Below the pieces are notes generated by a model. That model did no database searches, had not been told where the DNA came from, and was given only the letters and a program-made list of their open reading frames with translations. Below, in pieces: positions 3,238 to 55,869 of a stretch of DNA of 57,666 nucleotides. The position numbers and the translations under genes are program-made. Source of the stretch: Prorocentrum cordatum (taxonomy: Eukaryota); assembly GCA_963575745.1 (NCBI GenBank), contig CAUYUJ010000005.1, positions 62,001 to 119,666 of the forward strand. Direction: 5' to 3'. Numbering within the stretch: the first letter of the stretch is position 1; each line of letters starts with the position of its first letter.

Positions 3238-3404
3238 TCACCACCCACCAAACCACCCCAACCCAACCCGAAGGTCTCGATTTGACCTCCATTTCCAGTT
3301 GGGGGGGGTCGGGGAACCTCGAGAAAACACATATGGAACCCGTACCCCCCCCAACCCGAAATTCGGGTCTTCGGGTTGGGTTGGGGTGGTCTGGTAGGTA
3401 GTCA
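3238..3404. mobile_element. MITE family A copy 1
   Basis: TIR ccaccccaacccaacccgaag...cttcgggttgggttggggtgg; flanks ctgca/ttgca; homologous to 15633-15799 and 29770-30012. Confidence 0.85.
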
Positions 3405-4699
3405 TTGCAGCTGCCTGAAACTCGCCAGTTTCGTTTGCTGGATCTTGTGCTCTTCGAAGTCTGACCCTGGGTCTCTCCTCGCGTTCCCAAGGCTGGGCCC
3501 GCTGGTGGTCCGTGCTGGGCATGAGCTTCTCGCGTGGGCTACGTCTGTTTGGGAATCGGTCTCGACTTCTCAGGTTTGGGCCAGCGCCGCGCAGAGCTCC
3601 ATTGCTAAGTTTGCGAATTCATCGCGCCCGGGGAGATCGGCATCTTCGCCGAGCGACGTGGCGTTGCTCGCTCTGCGAGGGCGAAGCTGAGATTCTCGCG
3701 ATCGGCGCCGCATCTCAGCGAGCTTGGCTTCGACTGCAGGTTGCTGCAGCTCTCCCCGGTGCAGGTCGGGACTTTCGTCGGGCCGCGGGCGGTCGGGGCC
3801 TCGGACAGGTGCGCCCTTCATTCTTGGAACCGATTCGAAGGGCCTCCGACGTAGTGCACCCGATCTCCCGGGGCGGGGTCGCCAGGATTCTTTGGGGGGA
3901 TACGCAGGGGAAGAACAGGCGCCGCCAGCGGCGTCTTCGAGGTTTAGTCTCAGGGGCCCATTGGCCGCGATCTCGTCTTCTGGGCGCAACCCTCAGGAGG
4001 CGGATGAGTGCCGGCTGTGCCGAGGAGCCCCGGGCGCGCTATGGCGTCGCCTGGGCGAGTGACCCGCCCGCGCAGTGCTTCGACGGGATCTCGCTCGCTA
4101 GTGCGCGTCTCTGCTCGCGCGCGCAGAAAGTGCAGGAGCGCTGCTGCTTGGTGGCCGATCGTGCCGCGAGATGTTGCATCTCTCCTCGTCCTCGGAGCCT
4201 CTGTGAGATCGGGGGGCCCGCGCTGACCTTGCATTCGCATCGGGGGCTCCAGCCGGGCTTCTTCTCGGGGCTGCTCCATTGGGATGGCTCGTCGAAGCAT
4301 GTGGGCCTCGACGGGCTCGCGAGGGCAGGCTGGGGCACTGCGCCGGTCGACCGTTTCGGTCAGCTGACCGGTGCTGCTTGCGGACCTGTTCTTCTGACGC
4401 TGGTCGGCTTCCAGAGACAGACAGACAGACGCCATGCACAACATAGGTGCGTTGGCAGAAGATGTGAGACATATACTAGCCAATTAGGTGAAACGGCAAG
4501 CGCGCTAAGCATAGGAGGAGGAGAAGGAGGAGGAGGAGGAGGAGGAGGTGGAGGAGGAGGAGGAGGAGGAGGAGGAGGAGGAGGAGGGGGGGGAGGAGGA
4601 GGCTGGCCGGCTTCCCTCCTGTTCAAGTGTGCACGGGCTGCCAGGGCGCTCTGGACTCGTTGGGCTCGCGGGCCTGGGTGCCCCGGGGGCCCTCGGGCG

Positions 4700-4885
4700 C
4701 CTGGGGGGCACTCGTGGGGGCCCGCGCGGAGCTTTCGATTCGTGGGCACTCGAGTGGGGGCACGCGCGGGCTTGCGATTCGTGGGCACTCGAGGGCATTC
4801 GGAGCTTTCGATTCGTGGAGCTTTTGATTCGTGGGCACTCGTGGGGCCCGCGGGCACGCGTGGGCACTCGTGGGGGCACTCGCTC
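4700..4885. repeat. Minisatellite of ttcgattcgtgggcactcg-type units
   Basis: Repeated gggcactcg and gattcgtgg motifs. Confidence 0.7.
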
Positions 4886-6674
4886 CCGGCGACTTCGAGT
4901 GGTTCCAGACTCTCGGCCACGCGTCTGTCGCCGACGTTGGCGCTGGCAGGAGCGCTGGGCGGGGGCGACGCGCCAATAGGCATGCCGTCAGGTTTGCGAA
5001 GCTCGGCGCTGAGTGTCGCGGCGCAAGCGACGAGGAAGCCTACCTGTGCAGAGTTCTTCGGTGTCTCGCCCCTGAGGCGTGGGGATGGGCTGGGGGTCTG
5101 GAGGTAGCGATGTCTGGAGGCCCTCGCGACACCGCGGGATCGTCGTCAGGGGAGTGATTGCCGCGGGCAGCAGCCCAGTGAGTGCGACGCTGCGCAAGGC
5201 CAAGCGTCTGCCGACGATCAACAGGAGGGGGGAGGGTCGTCGGGCTTTGGGGAGGAGTGCATGCGGTTCACTCGGCAGGCCAGGCAGCCCCGTCTTCGAT
5301 CGGCTCGGGACCCAGAGAAGCAAGATCCAGTTTCGCTGTCGATGTGGTTCCTTTTTCTCGGGCGCGGCGAATGCTGGTGTTAAAGGGCCGTGCTGGCCTC
5401 AGTCTTCCACTGGCGGGATCAATGATCACTTGAAAAGGATCTGGCTGAAAAAGTCCCTGGTTCATGCGAAAAACTTGAAGGACATGGCCCTCCATGCGGG
5501 CCTGCTGCAGCGCCGCCCTCTGTTCCACGCTTCGGTCATTCAAAATCGTGATCCCGCTGCAGCGGTGGCCTCATTCCCGCGCCCCCGGTTATTTTAAGCG
5601 TGTTTCCGCAACAGCACTGGCGTAGTCGATCCTTCAAGTAGCGCTGTCAATGTAGCGCTGGCCTCGTTCCAGTGCTGCGGTCCTTCCAAATCGTGCTCCC
5701 CCTGCTGCTGTGGCTTCGTTCCCGTTTTCGGTCCTCCCCTCGTCCCCGCGCTCCAGCCCTTCTAACTCGTGCTCAGCGCTGGTCCATTTCCGACAGTGCG
5801 CATATGTGGGAGATCTACGCCATGGTAAGGGATGGGGGGGAGGGGTAGGACGTCAAATGTGACGCTAGCGCGCCTAGTTTGCCTCCCACCCCCTCTCCTC
5901 TCCCCAACGGCCTCCCTCCTCCCTCCTCTCTCCCCCTTGCGGTCCCTCCGGCAGTGGAGGGAGCCCAGACGGCGTTGTGGAGCTGAACGTTTCCCCCTGC
6001 CGAGTGGATCCGGTCCGCTCTCCCCCCTCCGCCCTCCCGCCTTGGCCTCCTCCCCCGCCCTCCCCTCGAACCTGCCAGCCGAGCGGGCGTCCCGCGTCGC
6101 GGCGGGCTCGGGCGTGCTCGGCAGCCCTCCGCCGTGGCCGCGCCCTGCCCGTCTGCCCCCCCTCCACCCTCCTTCCCCTCCCACGTGGGGGCGGCTTTCG
6201 TGGGAAGGCAGGGGTAAGCCGCCCGAGACTCGAGTTACGGCACGAAGTCCCAACAAGAAGAATCAATGGGCAGGATACCCCCAATCGCCCATTCATCGCC
6301 GTTAGAGGCCCGCTGTCCCCCGCCCCAGGAACGTGCGGAACGTGCAAGGCCTATTGCCGATTTCTCGGCGATGTACCGCCGATTCCAGTTCGATGCTCCC
6401 CCCCGTGAGCCAGTCGCCCCCCCTGAAGTTCGCCCTCCTCCTCCTCCCCCTCTCCCCTCCCCCCCTCCTCCTCCTCCTTCTCCTCCCGCTCCTCCTCCCC
6501 CTCCAAGGCCACGGACTGCTCAGGCCCGCAGCCACATGCGGCCTTCGCATCCGATGGCCTCCCCCGACCGCGAGCCGCCAGGCCCGCTTGGGGGAGGAGC
6601 AGGGGCCCAGCGCGCTGCTGGCGGCGGCGCTGCGCTCCGCTAGGGGCGGGGCGTGCTGGCAGCGGGCAGCCGGG

Positions 6675-9600
6675 ATGGAGGGAGGAGGAGGCAGCAGCAG
6701 CAGCAGCGACGGACCAGGCTGCAGCACAGGAAGGGCAAGGGCGAGGACGAGTGAGACGACGGGCACCACGGGTACGGGGACGGCTGGGCCATGTGGAACA
6801 TCACCATCACCAACACCATCATCATGGCTTGTGCACGCCTCCTTCGTAGGGTACAACGCTTACACGTTGATGCGTACAGGTCGTACGGAGAGCCTGGGAC
6901 TTGAATTTGCTAGAGCATCGGCGATCTTCGTTCCTGGAACAAAAATCCCTATGGAGCTCAACCAGCAGCACCACTATGAGCGTACCCCCGAGTTCCACTG
7001 GATACACTGGGGGTGGGGACGTGGGTCAAACACGAATGCGTCGGCGGGCGTCTCTATTGCGGTCTCGGCAAAGTTATACCAGCCCCGACATATTATTCGT
7101 ATAACATACCCACCACCACACCTTCAGGGGCGAGCGGGTTGTGTAGATATCGAGAGAGGTCCCCAGAGATTTCGTCTTATCGTGGGATACTACCCGCCTC
7201 GATGTTCATCAGCACGCCGCGCCCCCTGCTGGCGGGCGACATGCAAGCAACTTACCTCGTGGATCAAACAGCAGGCCGACAGCGTCCCAGCACGTGTATT
7301 GCCAATCATTTTCGCCGATCTGAATCTTAAGATGGGTAAGAAAGGCACCGAGCTTATTGATGATCACACCGTTGGACCCCATCAGGCCGGCCACGAGGAT
7401 GAGATGTCCACTTTTGTCCGCAGGCAGTTTGAAGAGAGCCACTTGACCTTCCTGAACACACATCATGATCTCGGACCTAGTTACTATGGCCTTAACGGAG
7501 CTCGTAGTCGTATTGATTACTTCTTAGGCCCGAGGGCCCTTCTGCAGATTGGGGTACGTATGCGAATGTTCTGGAATTCTCAGCGTCGGCTGCAGGCTCT
7601 CCCGCACATGATAGATCACGTACCCATGTACTTCCAGTTTCGTGTACCAGCACCAACACCGCACCAGCAGCAGCAGCGATGTGCATGGGACTGGGGAGGG
7701 CTAGCAGCAGCACTGCAGAACGGGTATCGGAGGGAGGAGTTCATGAGTCAGATTTGCCAGGCCTGGACAGCATACCGCCCCTTGTGTCGAGCTCTCACCA
7801 TGGACGAGGAACCTACTCGACACGCGGGGGTGGTCACCCAGATCATCCGACAGGCTGCTGTGACAGTATTCTCGGCAGAGAGATCGACGCCCGCGTGGGT
7901 CACCGAGGCGAAGGAGGAGAGGAGGAGGTTACTTCGACAGCGGGCCGAACTGCGAGACCTTGGGTTCGAACTCTCGGGCGGTCTCCTCCGGCGTCTCGAT
8001 CACCAGCTTCGATCGCATCGACGATGGCAGGAGAGGTGGAGGAGGGAGTCGCTCGAACAGGAGATCAGGGAGGCGTGGGCGGTTCGTGACCAGGCTCGGG
8101 TGGGATACCTCATCAGGCTTCGGGCGGGCACCAACATGGGACCTCGGAAGAGATGCTATCTGGCCCTCCCGACGAGTCGCCCCAGCGCCGAGGACTTCAG
8201 GAAGGCGATGAGCCTACCAGCTGTCGAGGGGGGTCTGACGACGACAAACGCGCACATGAGCAAATACATGACCTCTGAGGCCGTTCAGAAGCTCCTGGAT
8301 ACCCCCCTCGAGGACCTCCCTGCCTACGGACCCCGACTCGCCCTCCCGACCATTGAGGACCACGAGAGGGCTGCAGAGGACCTAGAGCTCGTCAAGAAAA
8401 GGATCCTTCACAGCACCCATCGTAGATATGCACCTCCGTGGTCGTGGCCTGTCGAGATATCTAAGTTGCTGCTATTTCCCGCCCTTCTGTTCCGCCCAGG
8501 GTACTCCCAGGAAGGCATAGGTTCCACGTGGAGACGACATGATCCCGACCTTCTGGATTTCGAGGCACTGGCGGCCACGACCCGCGTCCGGAGGACGATC
8601 AACATTGACTCAGAGCACGCGCAGGTGGGTCACGACATGTTCGTACAGTTGTTGGCACACATACGAGCACGAGCACTTCTACCCCAGCACGCCCGGGTCA
8701 GTCATGCTATCGCCATCGGCAAGCCAGGCAAAACCCCGACGGGAAACGACGTCACTGACATTACAAAATGCTTGCGTATACTGCATTGTTTCTGTCATTG
8801 GTGGCGAGTACTGTTACGTGTCGGGCTAGTAGATTTCGGCAGTCGGTTTGACCCCCCTCCCTGGGCATACGGCGGCATCATCCATAGGCGGAGGGAGGGA
8901 CTCATGACCATCATCAAACTCATCATGTGGAAACTTCGACGGTGTCATCATTATTATCTGGTCAAGTCGTATGATATGCGCAACGCCTTTGGCACGGGCA
9001 TGCACGAGCGCTTGTTCAACGCACACAGGTCACGGGGAGTTGACGAATACTATGGCGAGTTACTCACGCACCACAGGAGCACGGGCATGTTATATTATCA
9101 AGCACGTGATGGTGACGTCAGTTTACATCCCACGACGGGGGGCAGAATGGGAGACTCTAACGAGCCTGAGCTATTCATGGATGCATTCTACCCTCTTGTT
9201 AGTATGTGGCAGCGAGAGTTGAACACGATAATCGGCGACGATTTGCTATGCCATGACCCCTTACACGAACCGGGAGATCACGTAGGTGACACATCTGATC
9301 CCAGCGGTACAGATATTGATGCCTCGTTCGGCGGATTTATCGACGACTTGATTCGTGTGATCATCGTTCCCACGGGCACGGTGCAGGAGGCGTTGCAACT
9401 AGATTACTTGGACAATCGCATCCTAGATAAGCGACTTCAGGAGGGCGGGTACGCCCAACACGTCGACAAACAGGAAACCCTCGTTCATCTGGCCACGGCT
9501 AAGGACACGAAGGAAGCCGAGGCACGGATCTCAGGAAAAGCCATGACCAACCTTATCCACTTGGGCGGGTTCATCCACGTTCAGGGCAGTAACAGAAGAG

Positions 9601-12191: not shown

Positions 12192-12592
12192 CGGGGAGAC
12201 ATTGTTTCTTTTCAAGTTCTCGTCGTGAACTATTCTTGGGCGAATAGATCCAGACACCATGCATCGGAGATAGCTAGGCTGATGCACCACCGTCGGTGCC
12301 CTCTCGGGAGATACTGCGACCCGCGGCCTGCCTTTGCCTGCTCCTCGCGTTGATGCGCGGGGGGCGCTCGCCCCAGGCCTGCGTGCTGGACCAAAGTACG
12401 GGCACGGAGCGTGCCTGCGACAGCTCGCCGAATCAGTGTATTACACCCGTTTCCAGAGGCATTTGGGCTCCCTCGTGGAGTAAAAGGCTCCTCCCCCTCC
12501 CCCTCCCCCTCTCCCCTCCCGTCCCCTCTCTCTCCCCCTCTCCCCTCTCCCCTCCCCCTCCTCCTCCTCCCGCTCCTCCCCCCTCCCCCCCA

Positions 12593-13337: not shown

Positions 13338-13544
13338 TCGCAGGCCTAGAGGTTGACACCAACACCAATTTCGGCGGTCTGCCTCCACCGAGGGAAGAAG
13401 ATCCCGATCTCGGTGATGGTGGTAACACTCTGGCTTCCAAGGTGGCCGAAGTATTACCACCGACAGCCGAAATCTGGGATCCTCTTCCCCCCTGTGGAGG
13501 CAGCCCCCTGTGCTGGTGTTGGTGCCCACTTCCAGGCCTCCACA
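13338..13544. mobile_element. MITE family B copy 1
   Basis: Imperfect TIR aggcctagaggttgacaccaacacca / tggtgttggtgcccacttccaggcct; aattg on both flanks; homologous to 55326-55529. Confidence 0.8.
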
Positions 13545-13582
13545 AAATTGGCGTTTGCTGCACAGCCTCGGGCGTGTACTGA

Positions 13583-13745
13583 TCAGGAGGGAAAGAAACA
13601 CACAGACACAATTAATCGTCGATTCCCCAGGAAATATGGTAAAATATGGGAAGTGGGGGGGAAGACAGAAACCCAGAAAATATGGGAAAATATGGGGGAT
13701 CTTTTTATTTGTGTGAATTTATTTGTGTGTCCCGGGGCCCCTTCA
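13583..13745. mobile_element. MITE family C copy 1 (16-bp flanking duplication)
   Basis: tcaggaggg...ggccccttca flanked by ctcgggcgtgtactga at 13567-13582 and 13746-13761. Confidence 0.85.
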
Positions 13746-13850
13746 CTCGGGCGTGTACTGAACTCGGCGACCACCTGCGCTTCCTTGCCCCTGCGCCCTG
13801 CGGGTTCAGTCCGCGCCGGAGCGTCGGCCGCCCCCGCCGGGAGCCACGTG

Positions 13851-14012
13851 TTAGGAGGGAAAAAAACACACAGACACAATTAATCGTCGATCCCCAGGAA
13901 ATATGGGAATATATGGGAAGTGGGGGGGAAGACAAAAACCGAGAAAGTATGAGAAAATATGGGGGATCCTTTTATTTGTGTGTATTTATTTGTGTGTCCC
14001 GGGGCCCCTTCA
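13851..14012. mobile_element. MITE family C copy 2
   Basis: 5-bp TSD acgtg (13846-13850, 14013-14017). Confidence 0.85.
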
Positions 14013-14492: not shown

Positions 14493-14687
14493 TCGGGCCG
14501 GGCGAAAGGGGGGGATTGGGAAAGGGGGGGTTACGAAGTTTGCTGCATGCAGCCGGCTTCGGCCCCACCGAGGGGCCCATTCCTCGATGCATGGACGCCT
14601 CCGGCGCCGGGAGGCGCCCGGAAAATCACCCGCGTGAGCTGATTCTCAACCCCCCCCTTTGCTATCCCCCCCTTTCGCCCCACCCGA
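14493..14687. mobile_element. MITE family K copy 1
   Basis: TIR tcgggccgggcgaaagggg...cccctttcgccccacccga; homologous to 41527-41719, including the downstream flank. Confidence 0.8.
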
Positions 14688-15129
14688 GGCTGGTCTGTTT
14701 CCCTCTCCCCGTAGAAGAGGAGGAGGAGGAGGAGGAGGAGGAGGAGGAGGAGGAGGAGGAGGAGGAGTCAGGAGTCAGGAGCATCGAGGATCCGACCCGA
14801 TCCATGAGCCATGGGGGCGGTTTTTCCGCCCTCGGAGGGTGCGTGTGCGTGCCCACCGCCCGGAGTCCCTCCGGACCAGGATCGCAGGGGCCCTCCTCGA
14901 GGAGTGGCGGGTGCGCGGATGTCTCGGGCACGTGCTAGCACGGATCAGGGATGCCTGGATCTGGCACGCGGGCACGTCCGTGGTCGCGCCGACGAGCGGT
15001 CGAAGCCAACGTCGCCAATGGCGTTGTACGTAAGCGGGGCCACATCCCCTTTCCTGGGGGACGAGTTGGCGGCAAGGCGTTTAAGGATTTGCTGGAGCGA
15101 CAGCAGTGGATGCCAGCGGCTTGCCTGAA

Positions 15130-15632: not shown

Positions 15633-15799
15633 TCACCACCCACCAAACCACCCCAACCCAACCCGAAGGCCTCAATTTGCCCTCCATTTCCAGTGGGGGG
15701 GGTCGGGGAACATCGAAAAAACGCGTATGGAACCCATACCCCCCCCCAACCCGAAATCCGGGTCTTCGGGTTGGGTTGGGGTGGTCTGGTAGGCAGTCA
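15633..15799. mobile_element. MITE family A copy 2
   Basis: Perfect 5-bp TSD cttat (15628-15632, 15800-15804); TIRs as in copy 1. Confidence 0.9.
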
Positions 15800-28765: not shown

Positions 28766-28843
28766 GTGGTAGGACTCTAGGACTGCCGGGACGGTCGGTC
28801 CCTGCTCAATGGCTTCCTCGCTTGCCTCGTGCGACGGGAGCTA

Positions 28844-28924
28844 TAGGGGGCCACATGCGAACCCTACCCCTACCCTCCACGATTGCTGAGGGGGGTAGGG
28901 GTAGGGTTCGTATGTGGCCCCCTA
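28844..28924. mobile_element. Hairpin MITE family F copy 1
   Basis: Near-perfect palindrome tagggggccacatgcgaaccctacccctaccc...gggtaggggtagggttcgtatgtggcccccta; flanks gagcta/gagctg. Confidence 0.8.
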
Positions 28925-29137
28925 GAGCTGAGCGCCACCTCGTCCTCGCTGCGCTCCTCCGCCCTCTGCGGGAGCTGCACGGATGCGCCGCCCCCGGCGA
29001 GGCCCACCCTGGGCCCAGGGCGGGGCCTCCAGCGCGGTGGTCCCAGGAAGTCCGCGCGGACCTCGGAACGTTCTGTGTGTCCATAGGCTGTGCTGCTTTT
29101 CTTCCTATGCCTGCGCTCGGCGTCACCCCAGCACACT

Positions 29138-29769: not shown

Positions 29770-30012
29770 AAGTCACCGCCCGCCAACCCACCCCAACCCG
29801 AAGGCCCCGATTTTTTCCCTGGGCCCAGAAAATCACCGCCCACCAACCCACCCCAACCCGAAGGCCCCGATTTTCCCTCCATTTCCAGTGGGAGGGGGGG
29901 GGGGGGGGGGGCGCGGGGAACAGGGAACAACACACACACGAAGCCGTACCCCCCCCCCAACCCGACATGCGGGACTTCGGGTTTGGGCCGGGGTGGTCTG
30001 GATGGGCAGTCG
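29770..30012. mobile_element. MITE family A variant with duplicated left arm
   Basis: Two tandem 60-bp arms ccctgggcccagaaa.tcaccgccc.ccaacccaccccaacccgaaggccccgatttt. Confidence 0.7.
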
Positions 30013-31420: not shown

Positions 31421-31988
31421 TGCCCGAGTTAACGCTACTGTCGCACCGCATGCAGCGACCGGCAGGCCACGCAGCAGAGGTCACTCTTGCCCAGAAGGCC
31501 CTCCTGCGTGCAGCCGATCCCCGCATCCCTTCCTCGGGCCGTCCTCCCCTCATCCTGCCCTCCTGTCCCTCCTGCGTTCCCCCGCGTCCCTGCCTTCCTG
31601 CCTTCGTGTAGGGTGCCTTCGCGGGCGTTCGGCTGCGACGCCGCCAGGCCTGGCCTGCCTGGCTTCGGCTCAGTCGTTTTCGCCCGTTCCGCTTCGCCAC
31701 GGTCGGCTTGGCCAGCTGTCGCCTCCGCCCGGTCGTTTTCGGTGGCACTCGTTTTCGCGGTTTGTGTTCGCCCCGTGGCCTTCGTCGCTGCCGCCGTCCT
31801 CGACATCCCGTCGTCTTCGTCGTCGCCCTCGCCCGTCGCCGTCGCTCTGGTCGGGCTCGCCATCGTCTACTTCGCCGCTTGCCGCCGTCGTCGGCACTGC
31901 CGTCGTCGTGCCCCGCTCGCCCGAGCCGTCCGTTGGGGTCCACCCGCTCGCTTGCTTGCGAACCCGCCCGCCCCTGCTTCTTCAGTGT

Positions 31989-32294
31989 TAGGGGGCCACA
32001 TGCGAAACCTACCCCTACCCCCCTGCCCCTACCCCCCTACCCCTGCCCCTCTGCGTGAACCCCACCCTCCCCCTGAGAAATCGTGGGGGGTAGGGGTAGG
32101 GTTCGCATGTGTCGGGCGAAGAGAACTATGCACATGCACCGGTCCTGGCCAGGCCCATCCTTGGCCCCAGGATCGGTGCATATGCCTTCGTGGCCAAGGC
32201 AGGAGGGCGTATGCACCGATCTTGGGCTCAGGGTTGGGCCTGGCCAGAATCGGTGTATGTGCATAGTTCTCTTTCCTCTAATGTGGCCGCCTGA
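31989..32294. mobile_element. Family F copy 2 interrupted by a nested MITE (32112-32280)
   Basis: Nested element tcgggcgaagagaactatgcacat...atgtgcatagttctctttcctcta with perfect TSD atgtg (32107-32111, 32281-32285), splitting the family F right TIR. Confidence 0.85.
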
Positions 32295-32988
32295 TTGTCC
32301 CGCCTGCGCGACCCGCCCGGGGTCCGCACGCCCGGTCCGCCCGCTGGGGTGGGCCAGCTCGCTCGCGTGCAAGCTCGCGCGCCCGCCATAGCTCCCGGCC
32401 TGCCCCCCGCCCGCTGAGGGCCCTGCCGCGCGCCCCGCCCGTTGGGGTCCGCAGACGGACGACGACGACGACGACGACGTCGACGACGACGACGACGACG
32501 ACGACGTCGACGACGACGACGACGACGACGACGACGTCGACGACGACGATGACGTCGACGGCGGCGTCGGCGACGGTGCGAACGCCGCCATGGAAGACGA
32601 CCGCGGCGACACCAACCGCCGACGAAGACGACCGCCTGCGAAGACGACCGCCGACGAGGAAGAGCACTGGCGCAGCCGACGGGGGACGGGGACGACCGCC
32701 GGCGAGGACGACCTGTGCCCCTCCTTCTTCCCGCTGCTCTTGCCGCTGTCGCTCCTCCCCCTCTCCCCGCTTTGTTGTCCTACTGGTCATTCTGTTGCCC
32801 TCTCCTTCCATCCCATCCTATTCCATTCCCTTCACCATACTTATCCCACGCCATGCCATCCCACTCCACCCCACCCCACCCCATCCCACGCCATCTCATC
32901 CCACCCAACCCTTCCCTTCCGTCCTCCCCCCCCTCCCCTGGGACCCTCTGGCCCGCAAGGGGGGGCCAGCGACCGTGGGCACTTGGAG

Positions 32989-33030: not shown

Positions 33031-33034
33031 GTGG

Positions 33035-33232
33035 TCGGGGGCGGCAACGAGGGGGGTGATGACTAGGTGGGGTGGATATCATGGCGTGGGCCATGATGAT
33101 ATTTCCTCAGATTTCATGGCGCATCTTTTTAATTCATTACGTCCCTGGTCCACCCCCCTGGGCCGCGCACATGCCGCCGGTCATGATTTGCATCCCCCCC
33201 TCTCTGGACCCCCCCCTCTTGGCAGCCCCCGA
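33035..33232. mobile_element. Introner: MITE that constitutes intron 4
   Basis: TIR tcgggggcggcaacgagggggg vs reverse complement tcgggggctgccaagagggggg; TSD ggtgg at 33030-33034 and 33233-33237; intron 33031-33233. Confidence 0.92.
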
Positions 33233-33233
33233 G

Positions 33234-40688: not shown

Positions 40689-41052
40689 GATCCGGGGAGC
40701 CGCAGAATGGGGTAAGTGTGGAGGAGGTGGGGAGGGGATAATGAGTGGGCGATGGTTCGGCGGAGCGCTTGTATCGGCTACACGTAAGAGTGACCTTTCC
40801 GCCGGAGTGACTTTTGGTGCGCGGCTTTCGGGGGGACGCGGGGGGCGGGGGGGAAACCAGAGCACGCAGGCCGCTACGGTCGTACCGCACGCGACGATTG
40901 GCAGGTCGCGCACCACAGGCCAGTCTTGCCTGGGGCGACGTCTTGCGTGCAGCCGAGATGGGAGGGGAGGATGAGTGGGCCATGATTCGGCGGAGCGCTT
41001 GCTGGGGCGGGGGGGGCGGGGAGGGCAACTCTCACGGCTCGACTCTCCCCAG

Positions 41053-41178: not shown

Positions 41179-41318
41179 GTCTCGGGCGAGGGAGCTTTGG
41201 CCAGAGCCCTGAAGACTTCAGAGGCCCGACCCATCGGCCCTGTCAGTGGATGTCGATCCCCTGCCAGACCGGGGGGCCGTGTTCTGCAAGGTTGGGGCCA
41301 CTCATATGTCGACTAGAC

Positions 41319-41468
41319 GTAAGAGTGACCTTTCGCTGGAGTGACCTTTGGTGCGGGCACAGATACATCCCCAGATGGCTGAAAACGAAGCAGCAGCAGC
41401 TGCTTGCGCGCCCAGGTCTGACCCCCCCCGCGGCCCCCCAAAAGTCGCGCAGCAAAGGTCACTCTTAC
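41319..41468. repeat. Inverted-repeat-bounded segment
   Basis: Perfect 15-bp IR gtaagagtgaccttt / aaaggtcactcttac; the left arm recurs at ~40784. Confidence 0.65.
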
Positions 41469-41526
41469 CCAGGGCCACTCTGGCGTATAGCCGAATTTGC
41501 CTCTGGAGGCTCGGTGGGGCTGGCTG

Positions 41527-41719
41527 TCGGGCCGGGCGAAAGGGGGTATTGGGAAAGGGGGGGTTACGAAATTTGCAGCATGCAGCTGGTTTCGGCCTCA
41601 CCGAGGGGCCCATTCCTCGATACATAGCCGCCTCCGGCGCCGAGAGGCGCCGGGAAAATCAGCCACGTGAGCTGATTCTCACCCCCCCCTTTGCTATCCC
41701 CCCCTTTTGCCCGACCCGA
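41527..41719. mobile_element. MITE family K copy 2
   Basis: TIRs plus 5-bp TSD ggctg (41522-41526, 41720-41724). Confidence 0.85.
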
Positions 41720-41960: not shown

Positions 41961-42970
<1,010 letters not shown>

Positions 42971-43748: not shown

Positions 43749-43961
43749 TCGGGTATAGCCAGGACCCCAGGCAAGGGGACCCGGTTAGTGGTAGGGCCCC
43801 GGGGCCTTTGTGGAATTGGCCAGAATCACTAAACCAGGTCTGCCGTAGCTGGTGTTTTTCGGGTGACGGCAGTTCCGCTTAGTGGAACGGGGCGGGGGGC
43901 GCCTCCCCCAGTACACATCACTAAACCAGGTTCCACTAAACCCAGTTCTGCCAAAGCCCGA
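43749..43961. mobile_element. MITE with 5-bp TSD
   Basis: tcgggtatagccaggac...gttctgccaaagcccga; TSD atgta (43744-43748, 43962-43966). Confidence 0.85.
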
Positions 43962-47726: not shown

Positions 47727-50700
47727 TCGTAAATTGCCCCCGCTGCTTCGACCAGACCTTGCTTTGTTCGTTCTTGCAGGCGACTTCAACTTCGTAGTCT
47801 CCCACGCTGATCGCTGGAACAAGTCGTCGGGAGCGCACAGCGGCGACAGCGATGCGGCCGAGGCTGGTCATTGGCGCCGCACGCTGCCACCCTCGAGTCT
47901 TTACGAGTTGCACCAACCAGAGCCCACCCATGCAGGGCCCGTCTCGTTCGCTCGTCTCGACCGGGTGTACGTCAACCAGCCCGTGGCCGACCAGTTGGAC
48001 AAATCGATTTTCTCTGTCGCTCTACCCTGGACGAGCTTGTCGCACCATCGGCCTTTAGCCTTCGGCCGGTGCTCGAAGCCCATCCGGGCACCGCTGGACA
48101 AGGCCATCCCTGAGGCGATCGTCCAAGACGAACGCTGGCCCGTGCACGTTGCGGACGAGTACCGATCCCTGATGGAGCTCTCGCCAGAGGCTGGCCCGCT
48201 CATCCGCCTGCGCCGCCTCAAGGTGGCCATGCGGACGGTATCGGCTCGCCTTCTCGAAGAACGGGCTGCCGGGGACAATATGTCCGCGAGCGAGTCGCCG
48301 CTGAGCATGACGATGGCTGTGCTACGCCGGCTGGAACGGCACGGCCTTGCAGATGTGCCCGCGCTTCGTGCCAGGTATCCTGTGCTTCGTGATTTTCTCT
48401 CAGATGATCTTCTTCAGCATGCTCCTCATCGGTGTCTGTCTCGCCTTCGAGAACACGCCGTTGGCCTTGCGAGGGCGGATGTTCAGTCTTCTCTGCAACG
48501 CCTCCACGATGAGGCGCACGGTCTCCCCGACAACGTCCTGCGGCAGCGTCGATCCCAGGTGTTGCTGCAGCTCAAACGCATTGCGCCTGGGCGTTCGACG
48601 TCGCTGTCGGCGGTGGCAGGTGCAGACGGCGCCCTCCGCACAGACGGCCCCGGCATGGCCGCGGCCCTCAAGGAGCACTGGAGGGATACATTTTCCGCTC
48701 GTGCCTTGGATCGCACTCGCCGGCGGGAGTGGTTCCGCGAGGATGCCGGTCGCGCAAATGGCCTTCGCGCTGCTGCTCGCCAGATGCTCGGCGACACGTC
48801 TGCCTGGCAACTCCGCCGATCAGACATTCGACGTGCAGTGTCGTTGACAACCTCCTCTGCACCTGGTCCGGATGGAGTGCCGTATCTGGCATGGCGGCGC
48901 CTTGGGGCCCTAGCGGTCGACACTCTGTTCGATGCGGCCGTCGAGCTTTCCGAGGAGCATGGCCGCGACTCCCTGCTGGAGGCGTTCCCGCTGGATGCCA
49001 GGGGCGACACGGCGTTCAACTCGGCCAGCATGGTCTTTATCCCGAAAAAGACGGCACATGAGGCCAACGGTATCCGATACCATCTTCCTGGAGAGGTCCG
49101 CCCACTTTCCCTGGTGAGCACGGACAACAGATTGATGGCTAATGCTTATCGCTTGCGGGTGGAACCGCTGCTCGACAAGATCATATCGCCGGCTCAACGG
49201 GGCTTCTTGCCCGGCAGGTCCATGCTGCAGAACGTCGTCGAAATTGACAGCGACATGAGGGCGGCCAGCTTACAGGCCGAGCAGCCGGGCGCGGTCTTCT
49301 TCGACTTCGCGGCGGCGTTCCCGTCGTTGGCGCACGACTTCATGGAAGACGTGCTGGAGTTCCTGGAGCTCCCGCTGCCGTTCCGGCTCTTCGTGTCCAA
49401 TTTGTATTTCGGCAACGGCTGCAAAATCTCCGCCGGCGGGGAGCTGCACGAGGGCTTCAGCATCCGATCTGGGATCCGCCAAGGGTGCCCATTGTCACCT
49501 GTGCTATTCGCCCTCTGCGGCGACCTACTGCTCCGCCGCTTGCAGGGCTCGCTGCCGGGCGATACGCTGAGGGCGTGCGCGGACGACTTGGCCTTGGTTT
49601 CGCGGGACGTCTTCCTGTCGGCGCGCTGCTTTGTCCCTTTGTTTTCCGACTTCGCCGTCATCTCTGGTCTGTCGCTTAACTTGGGGAAGACCGTCTTCGT
49701 CCCCCTGGGTGACACTTCGGTGGGCAACTTTCGGCGCCAGCTTGAGGAGCGATTCCCGGGGTGGGGGGCCGCGTGCGTCAGGGATTGGGCAGAGTACCTG
49801 GGCTATGTACTGGGGCCTGGCGGGCGCTCGCGGTGCTGGCAGAAGGCGCTAGACAAGTATACCAGCCGCGCCGACCTGTGGGCGCAGCTTGGGCTTGGCC
49901 TGCATGACACCACCGTGGCGTACAACGTGTACGTGGCCTCGCTCCTTACCTTCCTCCTGCAGCTCGAGGTCCTTCCGGAGGATTGGGAGCACGCTGAGGC
50001 AGCAGCCCTCCGTCGATTGGTCCCTGGTCCTGCCCACTGGGTTCTCCCCGCTGACCTGCGAGCTCTACGGCGGCATTACGGCATGCCTCAAGAGTTTGCG
50101 GACATGAACGAGGTTTCGCTGGCCGCTCGTTTTCGCGTCGCTCACCGGGAGGCTGCAGCTTCTGGTGGCTTGGCCGTGGCATCGGCGGTTCGCCGCCTTG
50201 ACAGGTCGATCGCCGACGCGGATTTCTTCTGGCGCTATGTCCGGTGGTGTTCCTGGTTTCAAGGTGCCTACGTCCGCAACTTGTCTGCGGCAGTGTCCAC
50301 GTTCCAACGCGTAGGCATCGCCATCCAGACTGTGGAGGCCGACTTGGGAGCTGACGCCCCGCTCCCCCGCACTCGCGGGCAAGCCCGTCGCCTCGCCCAC
50401 GGCGTGCAGCGAGCGGCTCGGGCAGCGTGGTGCCGCACGTTGCGCAGCCACCCCGAGACGAGACTCATAGCGAAGTTGGCCAGGTGGCGGCTGCCGATCT
50501 ATCCGCGGCTTCGAGCCATCCGCGGGTCTGCAGTGCTGCAGCGTCTGGCCCGGCTGGTGCCGCCTCGCGTGGTCGCCGCAGTGCTTCGCACGTGGTTCAA
50601 TGGCTGGTGCACGGCCCGCCGTTTCCAAGCCCATGGGCGTTGTCTGTTCGGCTGTTCCATGGGGCAGGATTCTGTCGACCACTACATGGGCTGCCTCATG

Positions 50701-52728
50701 CTACACCGCCATGGCCAGCTTCGACTCCGGCTCCGCGCTGCGCCAACCTTCGAGGAGCGCGGCCTGAGGTTTTTTCTCCTCGCGGGCGCCCACGAGCTCC
50801 CAGACGTGATCCTCACCCGGCGGGCCCTGTTGCTCGCTGCGGCCTATCGGCTGCATTGCCGGTGCCGCCGTCAGCCGGCTTTCTCCGACCACGAAGTTCT
50901 ACGTCGCGCACTTGATCAGGCGGTGAGAGAGGCGGCTCAGGGGCGCGCTGGGGCTCTCCGCGCGGTGGACAGCGTCTGGGCGGACGAGGAGTTCGGCTTG
51001 TAGCCATGAGGGCACGTGCGCGCGCAGGTGCGCAACGAGCGCACCAGAGGATTTATTAACCACAGCTTGCGCGTGTGATGGCACTCTCCCTCTCCCTCCT
51101 CCGCTTTCCTCCCTCTCCCTCCCCTCCTCCCTCCGCTGGGATGCGACGCGTACGGCACTCGGGCAGTGCGAATGTTTGCCCCCCGGGCTGTTCACTCAGT
51201 GTTTGCCCCCAGGTGTGCTGCATAGGCGACGGCGGACTGCGGCCGCAAGCGTGTGTGCACGTCAGTGCTCCCTCCCCTCCCCCTCCTCGTCCTCCTCCCC
51301 TCCCCTCCCCCCTTCTTCCCGCTCCATCCTCTGGCGGTGTGCCGGCCTATCTGGCGATACTTTGCCACGGAACCTCCCAATGAGGCACCGCACCAGTCCT
51401 TTGACATGTGTTCTGTTGTGCGGACGTCGGGTGGCCTGTGTCCCGGCCGCGTGGCCGAGGCCCCTGCTCGTGATGCTGTGCTCACCCCTCTGCTGTGCAA
51501 CGTAAGGCTGAATAGACATGGCCGGAGCGTTGCACGAGGTGATCGGGTGTAGAGGTGATTTCTTCTTTTCCAGTGCTCGGTAACAGAAACGGTTGCAGTG
51601 CGCAACGTCTTCTATCCACTCCATGGGATAAATGGTTTCTGTTTTATTCCTCACCTCACGCTCACACGCCGGTGCCGGGTCAGAAGGCTCTGCTGTGCTC
51701 GATTGTGCTTCACATAATGGGCTGGCTGGCGGACTGCCGAGGCCCAGCCGAGAATGCTTGGCGCATCGAAGCTGCTGTCGTGGGTCGCGAGGTCCGCTAA
51801 GGCGCCAGCTAGGGTGGCTGGCAGCGGCTGGTGCCGTCGTGCTGTTGGCCATCACTGCTGGTGCCTGAGTGGCCCTCGGCCTGTGCGGAGGGCTGCGGGA
51901 CCGTGACGGCGGGAATCCCGCGCCCTCCACCTTTTCCCTTGCCTGCCAGCCCTCTTTCGATTCTGTAGTCGCGCCTCGATCCCCGCTTTCGCCCCCTCCT
52001 TCTCCCTGAATTGCCCGTGGCTGGTCTTCCGCACGCGGCCCGCAGTCTCGGCGGCGCTTCTGGCCCCGCTGCTCCTTGCCAGCCGCATGCCCAAGATGCA
52101 TGCCTATCGGGCGACTTTGCATGATATTGAAAATCTTCAGGCTGAGCCCAGCTCGTCTATTTGTTTCGGGAAGTGCTGCCTTGAGCGCGTCTTTTCTCCT
52201 CGCCTCCCCTCCCCCGGGCTCCTCTCTTGCTCCGTTGTGGATTTATCGACGTGGCCATTTGGGCCGCCAGGGGTGCATAGATCTGCAGTGCTCGATTTAG
52301 TCCCAGGGTGCGAGTGCATGCGTCGGCTCACCTATTGCAGGTTGGCTTGAGCGTGCTCTTTGTTTTGGGCTTGATTCCCTAGGCTCCTCACCCCCCTCCT
52401 CCTGCGCTGTTTCACCTCTATGCCGGTATTTGTCCACCAGCTGCTGCGCAATGCAGCCGATTTTGAAAACCACGTTGACCGCTCCTCCCTCTTGCCTCCT
52501 CCTTCTCCTCCTCCTCCTCCAGGTTCGTGGTGACGTTTATCCGGCCCGCCATTTTCGAGCCTTGCCGCTAATCAGCTTTTGTGCGGTACGAGGCCGTGTC
52601 CGTGCGCAGTGCCAGGGGATGGCAGCAGCTCATATTGGGGTGCGCTCATAGCCCCCCCATGAGGGGAAGCGGATTCGGTGCTGTGTCGCTGTGGGAAAGA
52701 ACCTGCTGAGTGTTCGCTGAAAAAAAAA
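47727..52728 (+). mobile_element. 5'-truncated L1/Tx1-like LINE inserted in the satellite
   Basis: Satellite stops at 47726 and resumes at ~52760; A9 at 52720-52728; assignment of the 1.7-kb 3' region to the element is inferred. Confidence 0.7.
47728..51003 (+). pseudogene. pol: LINE ORF2 (partial APE + RT + Cys/His tail), open frame but YADD changed to CADD
   Basis: LAGDFN, ARLDRVY, SAPGPDG, RPLSL, QRGFLPGR, FDFAAAFPSL, GIRQGCPLSP, ACADDL, EYLG, CLFGC..DSVDHY..C. Confidence 0.92.
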
Positions 52729-53044: not shown

Positions 53045-53690
53045 ATACACCCTCCTACCAAGCTCCCTTGTCGTAGGACCCTCTAAGTATTTATTTCCAC
53101 TGAGGGGAGTGCCCCGTTGGGAGGTCAGTTCAAAGATCCTGAAGCGTGCCGAAACACCAGTCTCGGAACTCCAACGCCACGAATCAACCTGTCTGTTGCG
53201 GCGTTGCGATCTTGAATCGTGCCAGAACGCCGTTTTGGGGACTTCAGCACCGCTGGTCAGGGTAACTGTTGCGCTTTGAGAGTCCTGAATCACACCAAAG
53301 CGTCATTGCTGGTATTGTAACCCTGCGAATCCGTGACATCATTTCGATTTTTCAGAACGAATGTGCGCGGCGTTATTGCGAGAGCCATCTTTTGAAAAAG
53401 ATCCGCCCTCAATCCGTGCAATATGTGCAACTGTCCAAAACGAATGTGCGCGGCGCTGCGGCGAGAGCGACACTTTGCGAACGACCCACCCTCAATCCGT
53501 GAACCGATGGCAGTTCTTAAGGCGAATGTGCCCTGGCGCTCAGGCGAGAACCACGTTTCGAAAACGGCTCGCCCTCCATCCGTAAAGCCCTCGCACATCT
53601 TGAAACGAATGTGTGCGGCGCCGAGGCGAGAGCCACACTGTGCAAACGACCCGCCCTCAATCCGTGAAGCTGTTGTCAGTTTTGAAGCTC
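53045..53690 (+). repeat. Repeat family J head plus satellite units
   Basis: gaatgtg[c/t]... unit cores near 53359, 53442, 53524, 53607. Confidence 0.8.
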
Positions 53691-55017: not shown

Positions 55018-55180
55018 TCAGGAGGGGGAAAAAAACACAGACACACTTAATCGTCGATTCCCCAGAACATATGGGAAACTATGGGAAGTGGGGGGGAAGA
55101 CAAAAACCTAGAAACTATGGGAAAATATAGGGAATATTTTTATGTGTGTGTATTTATCTGTGTGTCCCAGGGCCCCTTCA
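55018..55180. mobile_element. MITE family C copy 3
   Basis: TSD catat (55013-55017, 55181-55185). Confidence 0.88.
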
Positions 55181-55325: not shown

Positions 55326-55529
55326 TCGGGGGCCTAGAGGTTGACACCAACACCAAGATCGGCGGTGTTCCTCCACCGAGGGAAGAGGATCCCGATCTCG
55401 GTGATGGTGGTAATATTCTGGCTTCCAAAGCGACCGAAATATTACCACCAACACCGAAATCGAGGATCATCTTCCCCCTGTGGAGGCAACCCCCTGTGTT
55501 GGTGTTGGTGCCAATTTCCGGGCCTCCCA
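55326..55529. mobile_element. MITE family B copy 2
   Basis: TSD gtgct (55321-55325, 55530-55534). Confidence 0.85.
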
Positions 55530-55677
55530 GTGCTCGCGACGCACCGCGATTCCGCGTGCGGACCTTCCTTCCTGCCTGCGACGGAGGGCGGCGGAGGTGA
55601 GCCGCCTCGCCCTCTCCCCCGCTCCCGTGCGCATCTTGTCAGCTGTGAGGGGCCCTCTCCTGCGACGATGGGGAGGA

Positions 55678-55830
55678 TGCTGGGCCTGTTTTCCACCACC
55701 ACCACCATAAGTTGGAGGGAGAGGGGGTCCTCTTCCTCCTCCTCCTCCTCCTCTTCGTCCTCCTCCTCCTCGTCCTCATCCTCCTTCCCCCTCCAACTTA
55801 TGGTGGTGGTGGTGGAATACAGGCCCATCA
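55678..55830. mobile_element. MITE with a (CTC)n core
   Basis: ~42-bp TIR tg.tgggcctgt.ttccaccaccaccaccataagttggaggg; TSD gagga (55673-55677, 55831-55835). Confidence 0.9.
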
Positions 55831-55869
55831 GAGGAGAGCGCGCGCGGTCCTTCGACTGGGCCGCGCCTG

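What the first reader, a model, noticed from the sequence alone, without database searches (positions are those of the whole stretch)
3238..55835. At least seven sequence-unrelated MITE families share T...A termini and 5-bp TSDs
Perfect 5-bp TSDs seen: cttat (15633-15799), acgtg (13851-14012), catat (55018-55180), gtgct (55326-55529), atgtg (32112-32280), ggctg (41527-41719), atgta (43749-43961), gagga (55678-55830), plus the introner (ggtgg). All are 150-215 bp, begin with T, end with A and have imperfect TIRs, often asymmetric (TC. vs TG.). I cannot assign this to a standard superfamily: Transib uses CAC..GTG and Ginger uses TGT..ACA. Inference: one diversified DNA-transposon system mobilises all of them and doubles as the intron generator. 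No transposase is visible in this window.
Basis: partly seen in the sequence, partly recalled or inferred. Interest (0 to 1): 0.8.

Follow-up and report, generated by a model that had tools for sequence, protein, structure and literature searches.

The report
Dinoflagellate MITEs with 5-bp target duplications
A stretch of a red-tide dinoflagellate genome is peppered with many unrelated-looking miniature transposons that all start with T, end with A and usually duplicate 5 bases on insertion, and one of them sits exactly where an intron would have to be cut out of a conserved gene.

Summary
I count 17 elements of 108-213 bp in 11 families. All 34 ends read T...A. Twelve of 17 have an exact 5-bp target-site duplication (TSD) and 2 of 17 match at 4 of 5 bases. 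No two families gave a BLAST hit better than E = 0.012.

The window is Prorocentrum cordatum or a very close relative. Thousands of contigs in four public runs carry these families. One nested insertion has a paralogous empty site.

- an exact 16-bp TSD in family C;
- a 47-bp flanking repeat, 39 of 47 identical, around a second family K copy;
- a composite family D copy with a 7-bp repeat.

A Stowaway-like family flanked by TA is also present.

Element J plus one TSD copy (33031-33233, GT...AG) interrupts a conserved galactosyltransferase exon. Removing it restores collinearity with homologues. Splicing itself was not shown.

I found no transposase. My best reading is one class of DDE transposase, possibly integrase-like as in IS481EU, where 4- and 15-16-bp TSDs occur within one family. 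I rate this a new variant of a known kind.

The parts
2785..2990 (.). Family H element, 206 bp, TTGG...CCAA ends, exact 5-bp TSD ttgga
3238..3404 (.). Family A copy A1, 167 bp, TCACC...GTCA; flanks ctgca/ttgca match at 4 of 5
   Evidence: 93% identical to A2
13338..13545 (.). Family B copy B1; flanking aattg on both sides. Homology to B2 ends 3-4 nt before the right repeat, so the right end is ambiguous.
   Evidence: contigs diverge before 13338
13567..13761 (.). Family C copy C1 (element 13583-13745) with its exact 16-bp TSD ctcgggcgtgtactga at 13567-13582 and 13746-13761
   Evidence: the only non-periodic exact 16-mer pair at that spacing
13851..14012 (.). Family C copy C2, 162 bp, exact 5-bp TSD acgtg
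   Evidence: 42 contigs diverge behind 14012
14493..14800 (.). Family D copy D1. The TIR-bounded element 14493-14687 has no TSD. The homology to the D2 locus starts exactly at the left terminus. It runs past the right TIR into 27 bp of D2's flank plus a (GAG)n array. A second ...CCGACCCGA end at 14800 is followed by tccatga, which also precedes 14493, giving a 7-bp repeat.
15633..15799 (.). Family A copy A2, 167 bp, exact 5-bp TSD cttat
28830..28937 (.). Family I copy I1, 108-bp near-palindrome, TGCGA...CGCCA, exact 5-bp TSD cctcg. Serves as the paralogous empty site for E.
29833..30011 (.). Degenerate family A copy A3 (75% identical to A2). Ends and TSD are eroded. Its left flank plus left TIR lie in a 60-bp tandem duplication (29756-29874).
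31988..32300 (.). Family I copy I2 with degenerate outer ends, the host of the nested element E
32112..32280 (.). Family E element, 169-bp foldback, TCGGG...CTCTA, exact 5-bp TSD atgtg, nested in I2
33031..33233 (+). Predicted intron. It consists of 4 nt of the left TSD, element J (33035-33232, TCGGGGGC...GCCCCCGA, TSD ggtgg) and 1 nt of the right TSD. It reads GT...AG, is 203 nt long and interrupts a conserved galactosyltransferase exon.
40727..41003 (.). Family K copy K2 (element 40774-40956, TCGGCT...AGCCGA) with flanking 47-bp repeats at 40727-40773 and 40957-41003, 39 of 47 identical. It lies inside the GA..AG intron 40688-41052.
41309..41494 (.). Family K element, 186 bp, TCGAC...GCCGA; flanks atatg/atttg match at 4 of 5. 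It lies at the 3' end of the galactosyltransferase gene, and the stop codon of the annotated model lies inside it.
41527..41719 (.). Family D copy D2, 193 bp, TCGGGCC...GACCCGA, exact 5-bp TSD ggctg
43749..43961 (.). Family F element, 213 bp, TCGGGT...GCCCGA, exact 5-bp TSD atgta
55018..55180 (.). Family C copy C3, 163 bp, exact 5-bp TSD catat
55326..55529 (.). Family B copy B2, 204 bp, TCGGGGG...CCTCCCA, exact 5-bp TSD gtgct
55678..55830 (.). Family G element, 153 bp, 48-bp TIR, TGCTGG...CCATCA, exact 5-bp TSD gagga

Best explanation
These are high-copy, non-autonomous, largely foldback DNA transposons (MITEs) of Prorocentrum cordatum. I infer that they are moved in trans by one class of DDE transposase.

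That enzyme would need little more than a 3'-terminal A on each strand; the ends read ...GA-3' or ...CA-3' in most families. It would normally join the two ends 5 bp apart on the target, giving the 5-bp TSD. There is a weak preference for a GC / N5 / GC context.

Occasionally the two joins lie much further apart (16 bp, about 47 bp). This, together with the T...A ends, points most to a retroviral-integrase-like transposase of the IS481EU / IS1202 / IS3EU / Ginger2-TDD kind. That sub-claim is inferred, at about 0.35.

Because the element starts with T and ends with A, certain targets automatically give a GT...AG unit whose removal restores the exon exactly. These targets are GGHNN on the sense strand (H = A, C or T), or by the same logic AGGHN, NAGGH and NNAGG. 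Element J is such a case, with TSD GGTGG, inside a conserved galactosyltransferase exon.

Shown: the anatomy, the TSDs, the copy number, the nested empty site and the intron geometry of J. Inferred: the transposase class, cross-mobilisation of the families and actual splicing.
For: - 34 of 34 ends are T/A, and 12 of 17 elements have an exact 5-bp TSD against a chance probability of 0.011 per pair.
- Boundaries are fixed by copy-to-copy homology and by divergence of other genomic copies.
- Element E plus one ATGTG, once removed, restores the family I sequence seen intact at 28830-28937.
- The families are abundant. 11741 contigs (X1), 46295 (X5), 1925 (X2) and 193 (X9) were laid on 13.9 kb, almost all on the element stretches.
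- 5 of 11 families share TCGGG ends.
- The base before the TSD is C in 8 of 14 sites and the second base after it is C in 8 of 14 sites, against a background C frequency of 0.27.
- Family C shows 5-bp TSDs twice and a 16-bp TSD once. K2 has a 47-bp repeat, 39 of 47 identical. Neither recurs at control offsets in non-periodic sequence.
- In IS481EU one family gives 4-, 15- and 24-bp TSDs with TNT..AYA ends, and IS1202 gives 5-6, 15-17 and 24-29 bp (PMC10045372, passages).
- TDD-4 and TDD-5 give 5-bp TSDs (PMC2836005).
- For J: the public P. cordatum protein maps at 98-100% to 33081-33371, 40398-40697 and 41053-41313. Homologue alignments begin exactly at 33234 in 7 of 9 and 3 of 7. The frame upstream ends ...FLSLIPGCEAVLV at 33030, collinear with a transcript-derived homologue.
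Against: - No transposase is present in the window, and none could be sought in the genome.
- The ends are never TGT...ACA, the form found in Ginger and most IS481EU (0 of 34 ends).
- A 47-bp repeat lies outside the TSD ranges reported for IS481EU and IS1202. D1's 7-bp repeat fits no series.
- The long-TSD evidence rests on two elements.
- TIRs differ between families beyond 1-5 nt, so a single enzyme is unlikely to bind them all.
- The target-context preference rests on 14 sites.
- The public gene model starts inside J rather than splicing it, and no RNA was laid on J.
- In 2 of 9 and 4 of 7 homologues, tblastn extended weakly into J-derived codons.
Confidence: 0.6

Rival explanations
1. The families belong to several unrelated superfamilies that happen to share a 5-bp TSD. 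Under this reading some would be miniature or solo LTR-like elements with TG...CA ends, some Transib-like and some from hAT subgroups with short TSDs. There would be no common machinery.
For: - TIR sequences are unrelated between families.
- The penultimate base varies among GA, CA, AA and TA.
- Families G and I have TG...CA ends, like LTRs.
- P. glacialis introner classes use 3-, 4-, 5- and 8-nt TSDs, i.e. several machineries in one genome (bioRxiv 10.1101/2020.10.14.339549, passages).
Against: - All 34 ends share T/A. The size range is narrow at 108-213 bp.
- 5 of 11 families share TCGGG.
- G and I have 48- and about 45-bp TIRs or foldback structure, not LTR architecture.
- The one clearly different family in the window (TA-flanked) also differs in its termini, so the method can tell different insertion rules apart.
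Confidence: 0.12
2. The elements are Transib/RAG-like non-autonomous elements. That superfamily is the classic one with a 5-bp TSD and a GC-rich target preference.
For: Transib gives 5-bp TSDs and prefers GC-rich targets (PMC1131882, passages). Here the TSD is 5 bp and the flanks are GC-rich.
Against: - Transib TIRs start with a perfectly conserved CAC within the CACAATG heptamer, followed by a nonamer.
- 0 of 34 ends here start CAC; all start with T.
- TSDs of 16 and 47 bp are not reported for Transib in the passages read.
Confidence: 0.06
3. A cut-and-paste transposase of another known superfamily with an atypically short TSD moves them. A candidate is a hAT subgroup that I recall being annotated with 5-bp TSDs. 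The long flanking repeats would then be unrelated local duplications.
For: The 5-bp mode and the TIRs fit any cut-and-paste DDE enzyme. Only 2 of 17 elements have long repeats.
Against: - The long repeats abut the element ends exactly, to the base for the 16-mer, and are unique at those offsets.
- As I recall them, hAT ends are YARNG and the usual hAT TSD is 8 bp. This was not tested here.
Confidence: 0.12
4. No dedicated transposase is involved. Instead, hairpin-forming DNA is captured at staggered breaks by host repair, which would give variable duplications.
For: TSD lengths of 5, 7, 16 and 47 bp all occur. Many elements are near-perfect foldbacks.
Against: - A sharp 5-bp mode in 12 of 17 elements.
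- Invariant T...A ends across 11 families.
- Conserved terminal motifs and precise ends shared by copies.
All of these argue for sequence-specific end recognition.
Confidence: 0.05

Closest known systems
Dinoflagellate introner elements / introner-like elements (Polarella glacialis, Symbiodinium, Amoebophrya; 'IE' signature reported for P. cordatum)
   Same: - Short non-autonomous elements with inverted repeats and 3-5-nt direct repeats that create introns by borrowing splice sites from the TSD and the element ends.
[quoted passage not shown]
- The P. cordatum genome paper reports inverted repeats of 8-20 nt plus direct repeats of 3-5 nt in 2.4% of introns (PMC10666404, passages and supplementary note).
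   Different: - Here the element starts with T (class 12 starts with C) and ends with A.
- Eleven families share that signature.
- Long TSDs occur.
- Most copies in the window sit within large introns or outside exons rather than being whole introns.
- I found no family-level description for P. cordatum.
IS481EU (parabasalids) and the prokaryotic IS481 / IS1202 groups
   Same: - Ends begin with T and finish with A (TNT..AYA).
- Short TIRs and non-autonomous derivatives.
- A short TSD (4-6 bp) as the common form, and about 15-17 bp as a second discrete form within one family (PMC10045372, passages).
- Family C here shows 5, 5 and 16 bp.
   Different: - The ends here are not TGT..ACA.
- The short form here is 5 bp, not 4.
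- A 47-bp repeat is beyond the reported 24-29 bp.
- No IS481-like transposase was found or could be searched for.
- The host is a dinoflagellate.
Ginger2/TDD and IS3EU/GingerRoot (integrase-related DNA transposons)
   Same: - TDD-4 and TDD-5 give 5-bp TSDs.
- GingerRoot has TA..TA or TG..CA ends and a mostly 6-bp TSD, with 7- and 8-bp exceptions.
- The T-N...N-A end logic matches.
   Different: The Ginger TGTNR ends are not met (0 of 34). GingerRoot's TSD mode is 6 bp and its TIRs are 100-150 bp. No integrase-like ORF was seen here.
Transib
   Same: A 5-bp TSD and GC-rich targets.
   Different: The CAC...GTG heptamer/nonamer TIRs are absent.
Stowaway (Tc1/mariner-type) MITEs
   Same: Size, TIRs and high copy number. 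A true TA-flanked family with CTCC... ends is present in the same window (15132-15318 and 29140-29321).
   Different: The T...A cohort does not duplicate TA, and its TSDs are varied 5-mers.

Membership tests
MITE (non-autonomous TIR DNA transposon) | Small size, with no room for a transposase | tested here: met
   108-213 bp
MITE (non-autonomous TIR DNA transposon) | Terminal inverted repeats | tested here: met
   Anchored end-to-end comparisons for all elements. B1 and family C need gaps or offsets.
MITE (non-autonomous TIR DNA transposon) | Target-site duplication of characteristic length | tested here: met
   12 of 17 exact 5 bp; 2 of 17 match at 4 of 5; 3 exceptions of 16, 47 and 0/7 bp. 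One paralogous empty site.
MITE (non-autonomous TIR DNA transposon) | Many copies per genome | tested here: met
   2-3 copies per family within 57.7 kb for A, B, C, D, I and K. Thousands of contigs laid on the element stretches in 4 runs.
MITE (non-autonomous TIR DNA transposon) | An autonomous partner with the same termini | not testable with these tools
   No genome is held. There were 0 hits in the metagenome, genome and viral collections.
Introner (intron-generating transposon) | Element plus TSD coincides exactly with an intron that interrupts coding sequence | tested here: met
   J only. 33031-33233 reads GT..AG, and its removal restores a conserved block collinear with homologues.
Introner (intron-generating transposon) | Removal by the spliceosome, seen in RNA | not tested
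   The one read-laying run covered 2600-16500 only. The public model does not splice J.
Introner (intron-generating transposon) | Many similar copies forming introns in unrelated genes | not testable with these tools
   J is single-copy in the window, and no genome is held.
Transib | 5-bp TSD | tested here: met
Transib | CAC... heptamer at both ends, plus a nonamer | tested here: not met
   0 of 34 ends start CAC. Rule taken from PMC1131882.
Ginger1 / Ginger2-TDD | TGTNR termini | tested here: not met
   0 of 34 ends start TGT. Rule taken from PMC2836005.
Ginger1 / Ginger2-TDD | 4- or 5-bp TSD | tested here: met
IS481EU / IS1202-like | Discrete TSD lengths (about 4-6 and about 15-17 bp, sometimes about 24-29 bp) within one family | tested here: inconclusive
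   Family C shows 5, 5 and 16 bp. This is one long case only. The 47-bp repeat of K2 lies outside the reported ranges.
IS481EU / IS1202-like | Termini T-N-T...A-Y-A or TGT...ACA | tested here: inconclusive
   T...A always holds, but the third base is not T. The starts seen are TCA, TCG, TGA, TGC, TGG, TTG, TTA and TAG.
IS481EU / IS1202-like | IS481-type DDE transposase | not testable with these tools
   No rve-type or other transposase domain in 137 ORFs. The genome is not available.
Tc1/mariner Stowaway | TA target duplication | tested here: not met
   The TSDs are varied 5-mers. TA flanks are seen only in the separate family T.

The most novel reading that the evidence does not exclude
Dinoflagellates may harbour an undescribed integrase-like DNA-transposon superfamily, akin to IS481EU/IS1202. 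Its transpososome would join ends either 5 bp apart or one or more helical turns further (16 bp, about 47 bp). Its minimal end requirement (T...A) would let dozens of unrelated foldback MITE families ride on it. That same end rule would make it a built-in intron generator for P. cordatum, since T completes G|T and A completes A|G.
Probability: 0.22. Interest if true: 0.75.

Novelty: new variant of a known kind. Interest (0 to 1): 0.55.

Why it matters
Introners are the leading explanation for bursts of intron gain, and dinoflagellates are the richest case. The enzymes that move dinoflagellate introners are, however, unknown.

This window gives a sharp, testable signature: T...A ends, a 5-bp TSD, occasional TSDs about one helical turn or more longer, and a GC/N5/GC target context. 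That signature can be used to pull the autonomous element out of the 4-Gb P. cordatum assembly, where 46% of repeats are unclassified (PMC10666404 supplementary note).

It also gives a simple rule for which insertions become clean introns. And it flags a public gene model whose N-terminus is translated from a transposon.

Tried and rejected
- **Whole genome:** none is held, so no genome-wide TSD census or search for autonomous elements was possible.
- **Collection scans for more copies:** the family C right-end 21-mer gave 0 hits in metagenome, prokaryote-genome and viral contigs. The family A TIR 22-mer gave 0 hits in metagenome contigs.
- **Earlier findings of this scan:** nothing was found by place, by sequence or by words.
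- **Read laying:** no joint that skips a whole element (an empty site) was among the 15 joints shown of 122. No listed holder was on record as RNA, so I make no statement on expression.
- **Rfam:** 0 matches at gathering score.
- **My first two TSD-first scans:** one search was wrongly indexed. One search was dominated by palindrome artefacts, and its complexity filter dropped families A, C and D. I took from it only I1 (28830-28937).
- **First control for the long repeats:** one search was swamped by microsatellites. I redid it with periodic sequence excluded.
- **Region 5384-6311:** high summed depth, but no TIR or TSD structure. I read it as CT-rich low complexity.
- **Solo-LTR reading for G and I:** rejected because of their long TIRs.
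- **Transcript-derived copy of this paralogue:** I looked for one that would show J spliced, and none was found (best hit 98% = the public model, next 85%).
Full report
**What the window is.** The sequence is about 60% G+C and rich in microsatellites. It contains two LINE-type ORFs:
- 47461-51003, with RVT_1 plus Exo_endo_phos domains;
- 6306-12188, with no Pfam hit. The protein Atlas places it among clusters carrying RVT_1 and Exo_endo_phos domains, with a score of 0.96 and 177 shared features.

An ORF with a galactosyltransferase domain is 98% identical to an NCBI protein labelled Prorocentrum cordatum. That protein (P0002) maps to three window segments, at 100% (33081-33371 and 41053-41313) and 98% (40398-40697). 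The window is therefore P. cordatum or something very near it. No whole genome is held for it.

**Checking the observation.** A search for inverted repeats and a family-against-window BLAST added more members. In all I describe 17 elements with definable ends, in 11 families:
- A: 3238-3404 and 15633-15799
- B: 13338-13545 and 55326-55529
- C: 13583-13745, 13851-14012 and 55018-55180
- D: 14493-14687 and 41527-41719
- E: 32112-32280
- F: 43749-43961
- G: 55678-55830
- H: 2785-2990
- I: 28830-28937
- J: 33035-33232
- K: 41309-41494 and 40774-40956

There are also a degenerate third A copy (29833-30011) and a second I copy that hosts E.

Where a family has several copies, homology stops exactly at the first T and the last A (left end of B). 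In one search, contigs from other genomic copies diverge with low agreement at three places. These are behind 14012 (42 contigs in X1), before 13338 (7 in X9) and behind 14687 (2 in X9). These are the same ends.

All 34 ends are T (5') and A (3'). Twelve of 17 elements have an exact 5-bp TSD, and two more (A1, K) match at 4 of 5 positions. The empirical chance of a 5-mer flank match at this spacing is 0.011, a figure inflated by microsatellites.

Element E gives direct proof of duplication. It sits inside a family I copy. When E and one ATGTG are left out, the remainder aligns without a break to the intact family I copy at 28830-28937, which has a single ATGTG.

**Are the families unrelated?** At BLAST level they are. 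No cross-family hit is better than E = 0.012. They are not wholly independent, though. Five of 11 families (B, D, E, F, J) carry TCGGG at one or both ends, and K has TCGAC/TCGGC. The base next to the terminal A is G or C in nearly all ends.

**Abundance.** On 13.9 kb (2600-16500) the following numbers of contigs were laid at 85% likeness or more: 11741 from X1, 46295 from X5, 1925 from a marine metagenome (X2) and 193 from X9. The summed depth is in the thousands over the element stretches, against about 20 over the single-copy LINE ORF in X1. These are high-copy families present in more than one organism label and in seawater DNA.

1. C1 is flanked by an exact 16-bp repeat (13567-13582 and 13746-13761), not by 5 bp. 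It is the only non-periodic exact 16-mer pair at that offset.
2. K2 (40774-40956) is flanked immediately by 47-bp repeats, 39 of 47 identical. Among non-periodic sequence, that level of identity occurs only at this site, and at none of five control offsets.
3. D1 has no TSD at its TIR-defined right end. Its homology with the D2 locus begins exactly at the left terminus. It continues past the right TIR through 27 bp of D2's flank and a (GAG)n array. A second ...CCGACCCGA end at 14800 is followed by TCCATGA, which also precedes the left end. I read this as a copy that moved with transduced flank, using a downstream end. That reading is inference.
4. A separate family (15132-15318 and 29140-29321; 84% identical) has CTCC... 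ends and TA on both sides. It is a Stowaway-like, Tc1/mariner-type MITE. The window therefore holds at least two insertion rules, and the 5-bp rule is not an artefact of how I looked.

**Target context.** In 14 reconstructed empty sites, the base before the TSD is C in 8, the base after it is G in 7, and the next base is C in 8. Background frequencies are C 0.27 and G 0.34. This hints at a symmetric GC / N5 / GC context. The sample is small.

**The intron case.** J carries the TSD GGTGG. Starting one base into the left TSD and ending one base into the right TSD gives a 203-nt unit, 33031-33233. It begins GT and ends AG, where the A is the element's last base and the G is the first base of the TSD. 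Removing it restores the pre-insertion sequence.

- The reading frame upstream ends ...FLSLIPGCEAVLV at 33030, and the frame downstream starts VVEQTQDGQKFNRG at 33234.
- Homologous galactosyltransferases read straight through this block. One is a transcript-derived protein (P0025). It reads ...FLSSIPGCTAIIV followed by VVEQSQDGRKFNRG.
- tblastn alignments of homologues begin exactly at 33234 in 7 of 9 and 3 of 7. The rest extend weakly, with gaps or low identity, into J-derived codons.
- The short upstream exon was seen only in my own translation, not as a tblastn hit.
- The predicted intron RNA pairs its two ends. The fold gives -92 kcal/mol with a z-score of -2.33, and 5 of 200 shuffles fold as well.
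- The public model P0002 instead starts at an ATG inside J, so its first 50 or so residues are transposon-encoded.

Whether J is spliced in vivo was not tested. My one read-laying run covered a different stretch.

The geometry generalises. With ends T...A and a 5-bp TSD, targets GGHNN, AGGHN, NAGGH and NNAGG on the sense strand would each give a G[T/C/A]...AG unit that restores the exon. The first of these uses the terminal A and the last uses the initial T. This parallels P. glacialis class 12, which has a 5-nt TSD of NAGGH or NNAGG and whose initial C is used as the second intron base (preprint passages).

Most other copies lie within introns of the same gene or outside exons:
- I1, the TA family copy, A3 and E/I2 lie in the intron of about 4.7 kb between 28268 and 32988.
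- K2 lies in the GA..AG intron 40688-41052.
- K lies at the 3' end, and the model's stop codon lies inside it.

**Mechanism and comparison.** No ORF of 130 aa or more has a transposase or integrase domain (8 + 129 ORFs). These are non-autonomous elements.

- **Transib** shares the 5-bp TSD and the GC-rich targets but requires CAC... ends. This is not met (0 of 34 ends).
- **Ginger** requires TGTNR ends. This is not met.
- **Integrase-related transposons** as a group have T-N...N-A ends and short TSDs. TDD-4 and TDD-5 give 5 bp. GingerRoot/IS3EU has TA..TA or TG..CA ends and a 6-bp TSD, with 7- and 8-bp exceptions.
- **IS481EU** is the closest behavioural match. Its families give about 4-bp, 15-16-bp and 24-25-bp TSDs, even within one family, with TNT..AYA ends. 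The related IS1202 group gives 5-6, 15-17 and 24-29 bp.

Family C's 5, 5 and 16 bp fits that pattern. K2's 47 bp and D1's 7 bp do not fit the published ranges.

My best reading is therefore one class of DDE transposase with a 5-bp stagger. The integrase-like identity is a minority-probability sub-claim of about 0.35.

**Novelty.** Introner-type elements in dinoflagellates are known. The P. cordatum genome paper reports a generic signature, inverted repeats of 8-20 nt plus direct repeats of 3-5 nt, in 2.4% of introns. It also reports that 46% of repeats are unclassified (main-text passages and supplementary note read).

I found no family-level description:
- 0 papers hold both 'Prorocentrum' and 'miniature inverted'.
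- The papers holding 'Prorocentrum cordatum' and 'introner' (7; 6 listed) are genome papers or reviews, judged from the listing.
- 'Prorocentrum' does not occur in the main text of the 2025 introner survey, nor in 12 of its 14 supplementary files. Files 13 and 14 were not searched.
- The final journal version of the Polarella study was not in the library. I read passages of its preprint only.

I rate this a new variant of a known kind.

Noticed in passing
15132-15318 and 29140-29321: A separate MITE family (84% identical copies) with CTCC[A/G]GAT... ends, flanked by TA on both sides. It is Stowaway-like, of the Tc1/mariner type. It is also high-copy, judged by depth in bin 15128-15591.
   Followed up: partly
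33081-33232: The public P. cordatum protein model (P0002) starts at an ATG inside MITE J. Its first 50 or so residues are transposon-encoded, and the true upstream exons (28220-28267 and about 32989-33030) are left out.
   Followed up: yes
6306-12188 (+): A 1961-aa open frame with no Pfam domain at E <= 0.001. It has an FIDD motif and only weak C2H2 zinc-finger matches. The protein Atlas places it among clusters carrying RVT_1 and Exo_endo_phos domains (score 0.96). It is probably a divergent non-LTR retrotransposon, at single-copy depth in X1.
   Followed up: partly
47461-51003 (+); 219-671 (+): A LINE ORF with Exo_endo_phos and RVT_1 domains, and a second RVT_1 fragment. Tandem arrays of an 82-83-bp unit lie at 47359-47722 and 53356-53670, with related sequence at 16217-16356.
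   Followed up: no
14688-14800 and 41720-41808: D1 carries a copy of the sequence that flanks D2 (an intron end ...CCCCGTAG plus (GAG)n), followed by a second D-type right end. This looks like transduction of host flank by use of a downstream end.
   Followed up: partly
29756-29874: A 60-bp unit repeated twice in tandem. It consists of 17 bp of flank plus the first 43 bp of the left TIR of the degenerate family A copy.
   Followed up: no
33449-35508; 36170-36742; 39626-40168; 42108-42970: Very long trinucleotide arrays, (GAT)n up to 2 kb and (GAG)n, fill the 7-kb intron of the galactosyltransferase gene and the region after it. They give a strong G-over-C skew across 34-44 kb.
   Followed up: no
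40688-41052: The intron between the second and third mapped exons appears to start with GA rather than GT. This is a non-canonical donor known in dinoflagellates, and is inferred here from the protein mapping.
   Followed up: partly
44049-44248: A 200-bp inverted-repeat element (TAACTTTTGGAGCTCC...) with only a possible 3-bp flank repeat (cat). It does not follow the T...A / 5-bp rule. It is single-copy in the window and its class is unknown.
   Followed up: no
29470-29507 and 29646-29683: An exact 38-bp direct repeat 176 bp apart. The 138 bp between the copies has no TIR. It is probably a local tandem duplication.
   Followed up: no
12278-13126 (+): An ORF with a MYND zinc finger (E = 3.5e-10), directly upstream of the cluster of five MITEs at 13338-15799.
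   Followed up: no
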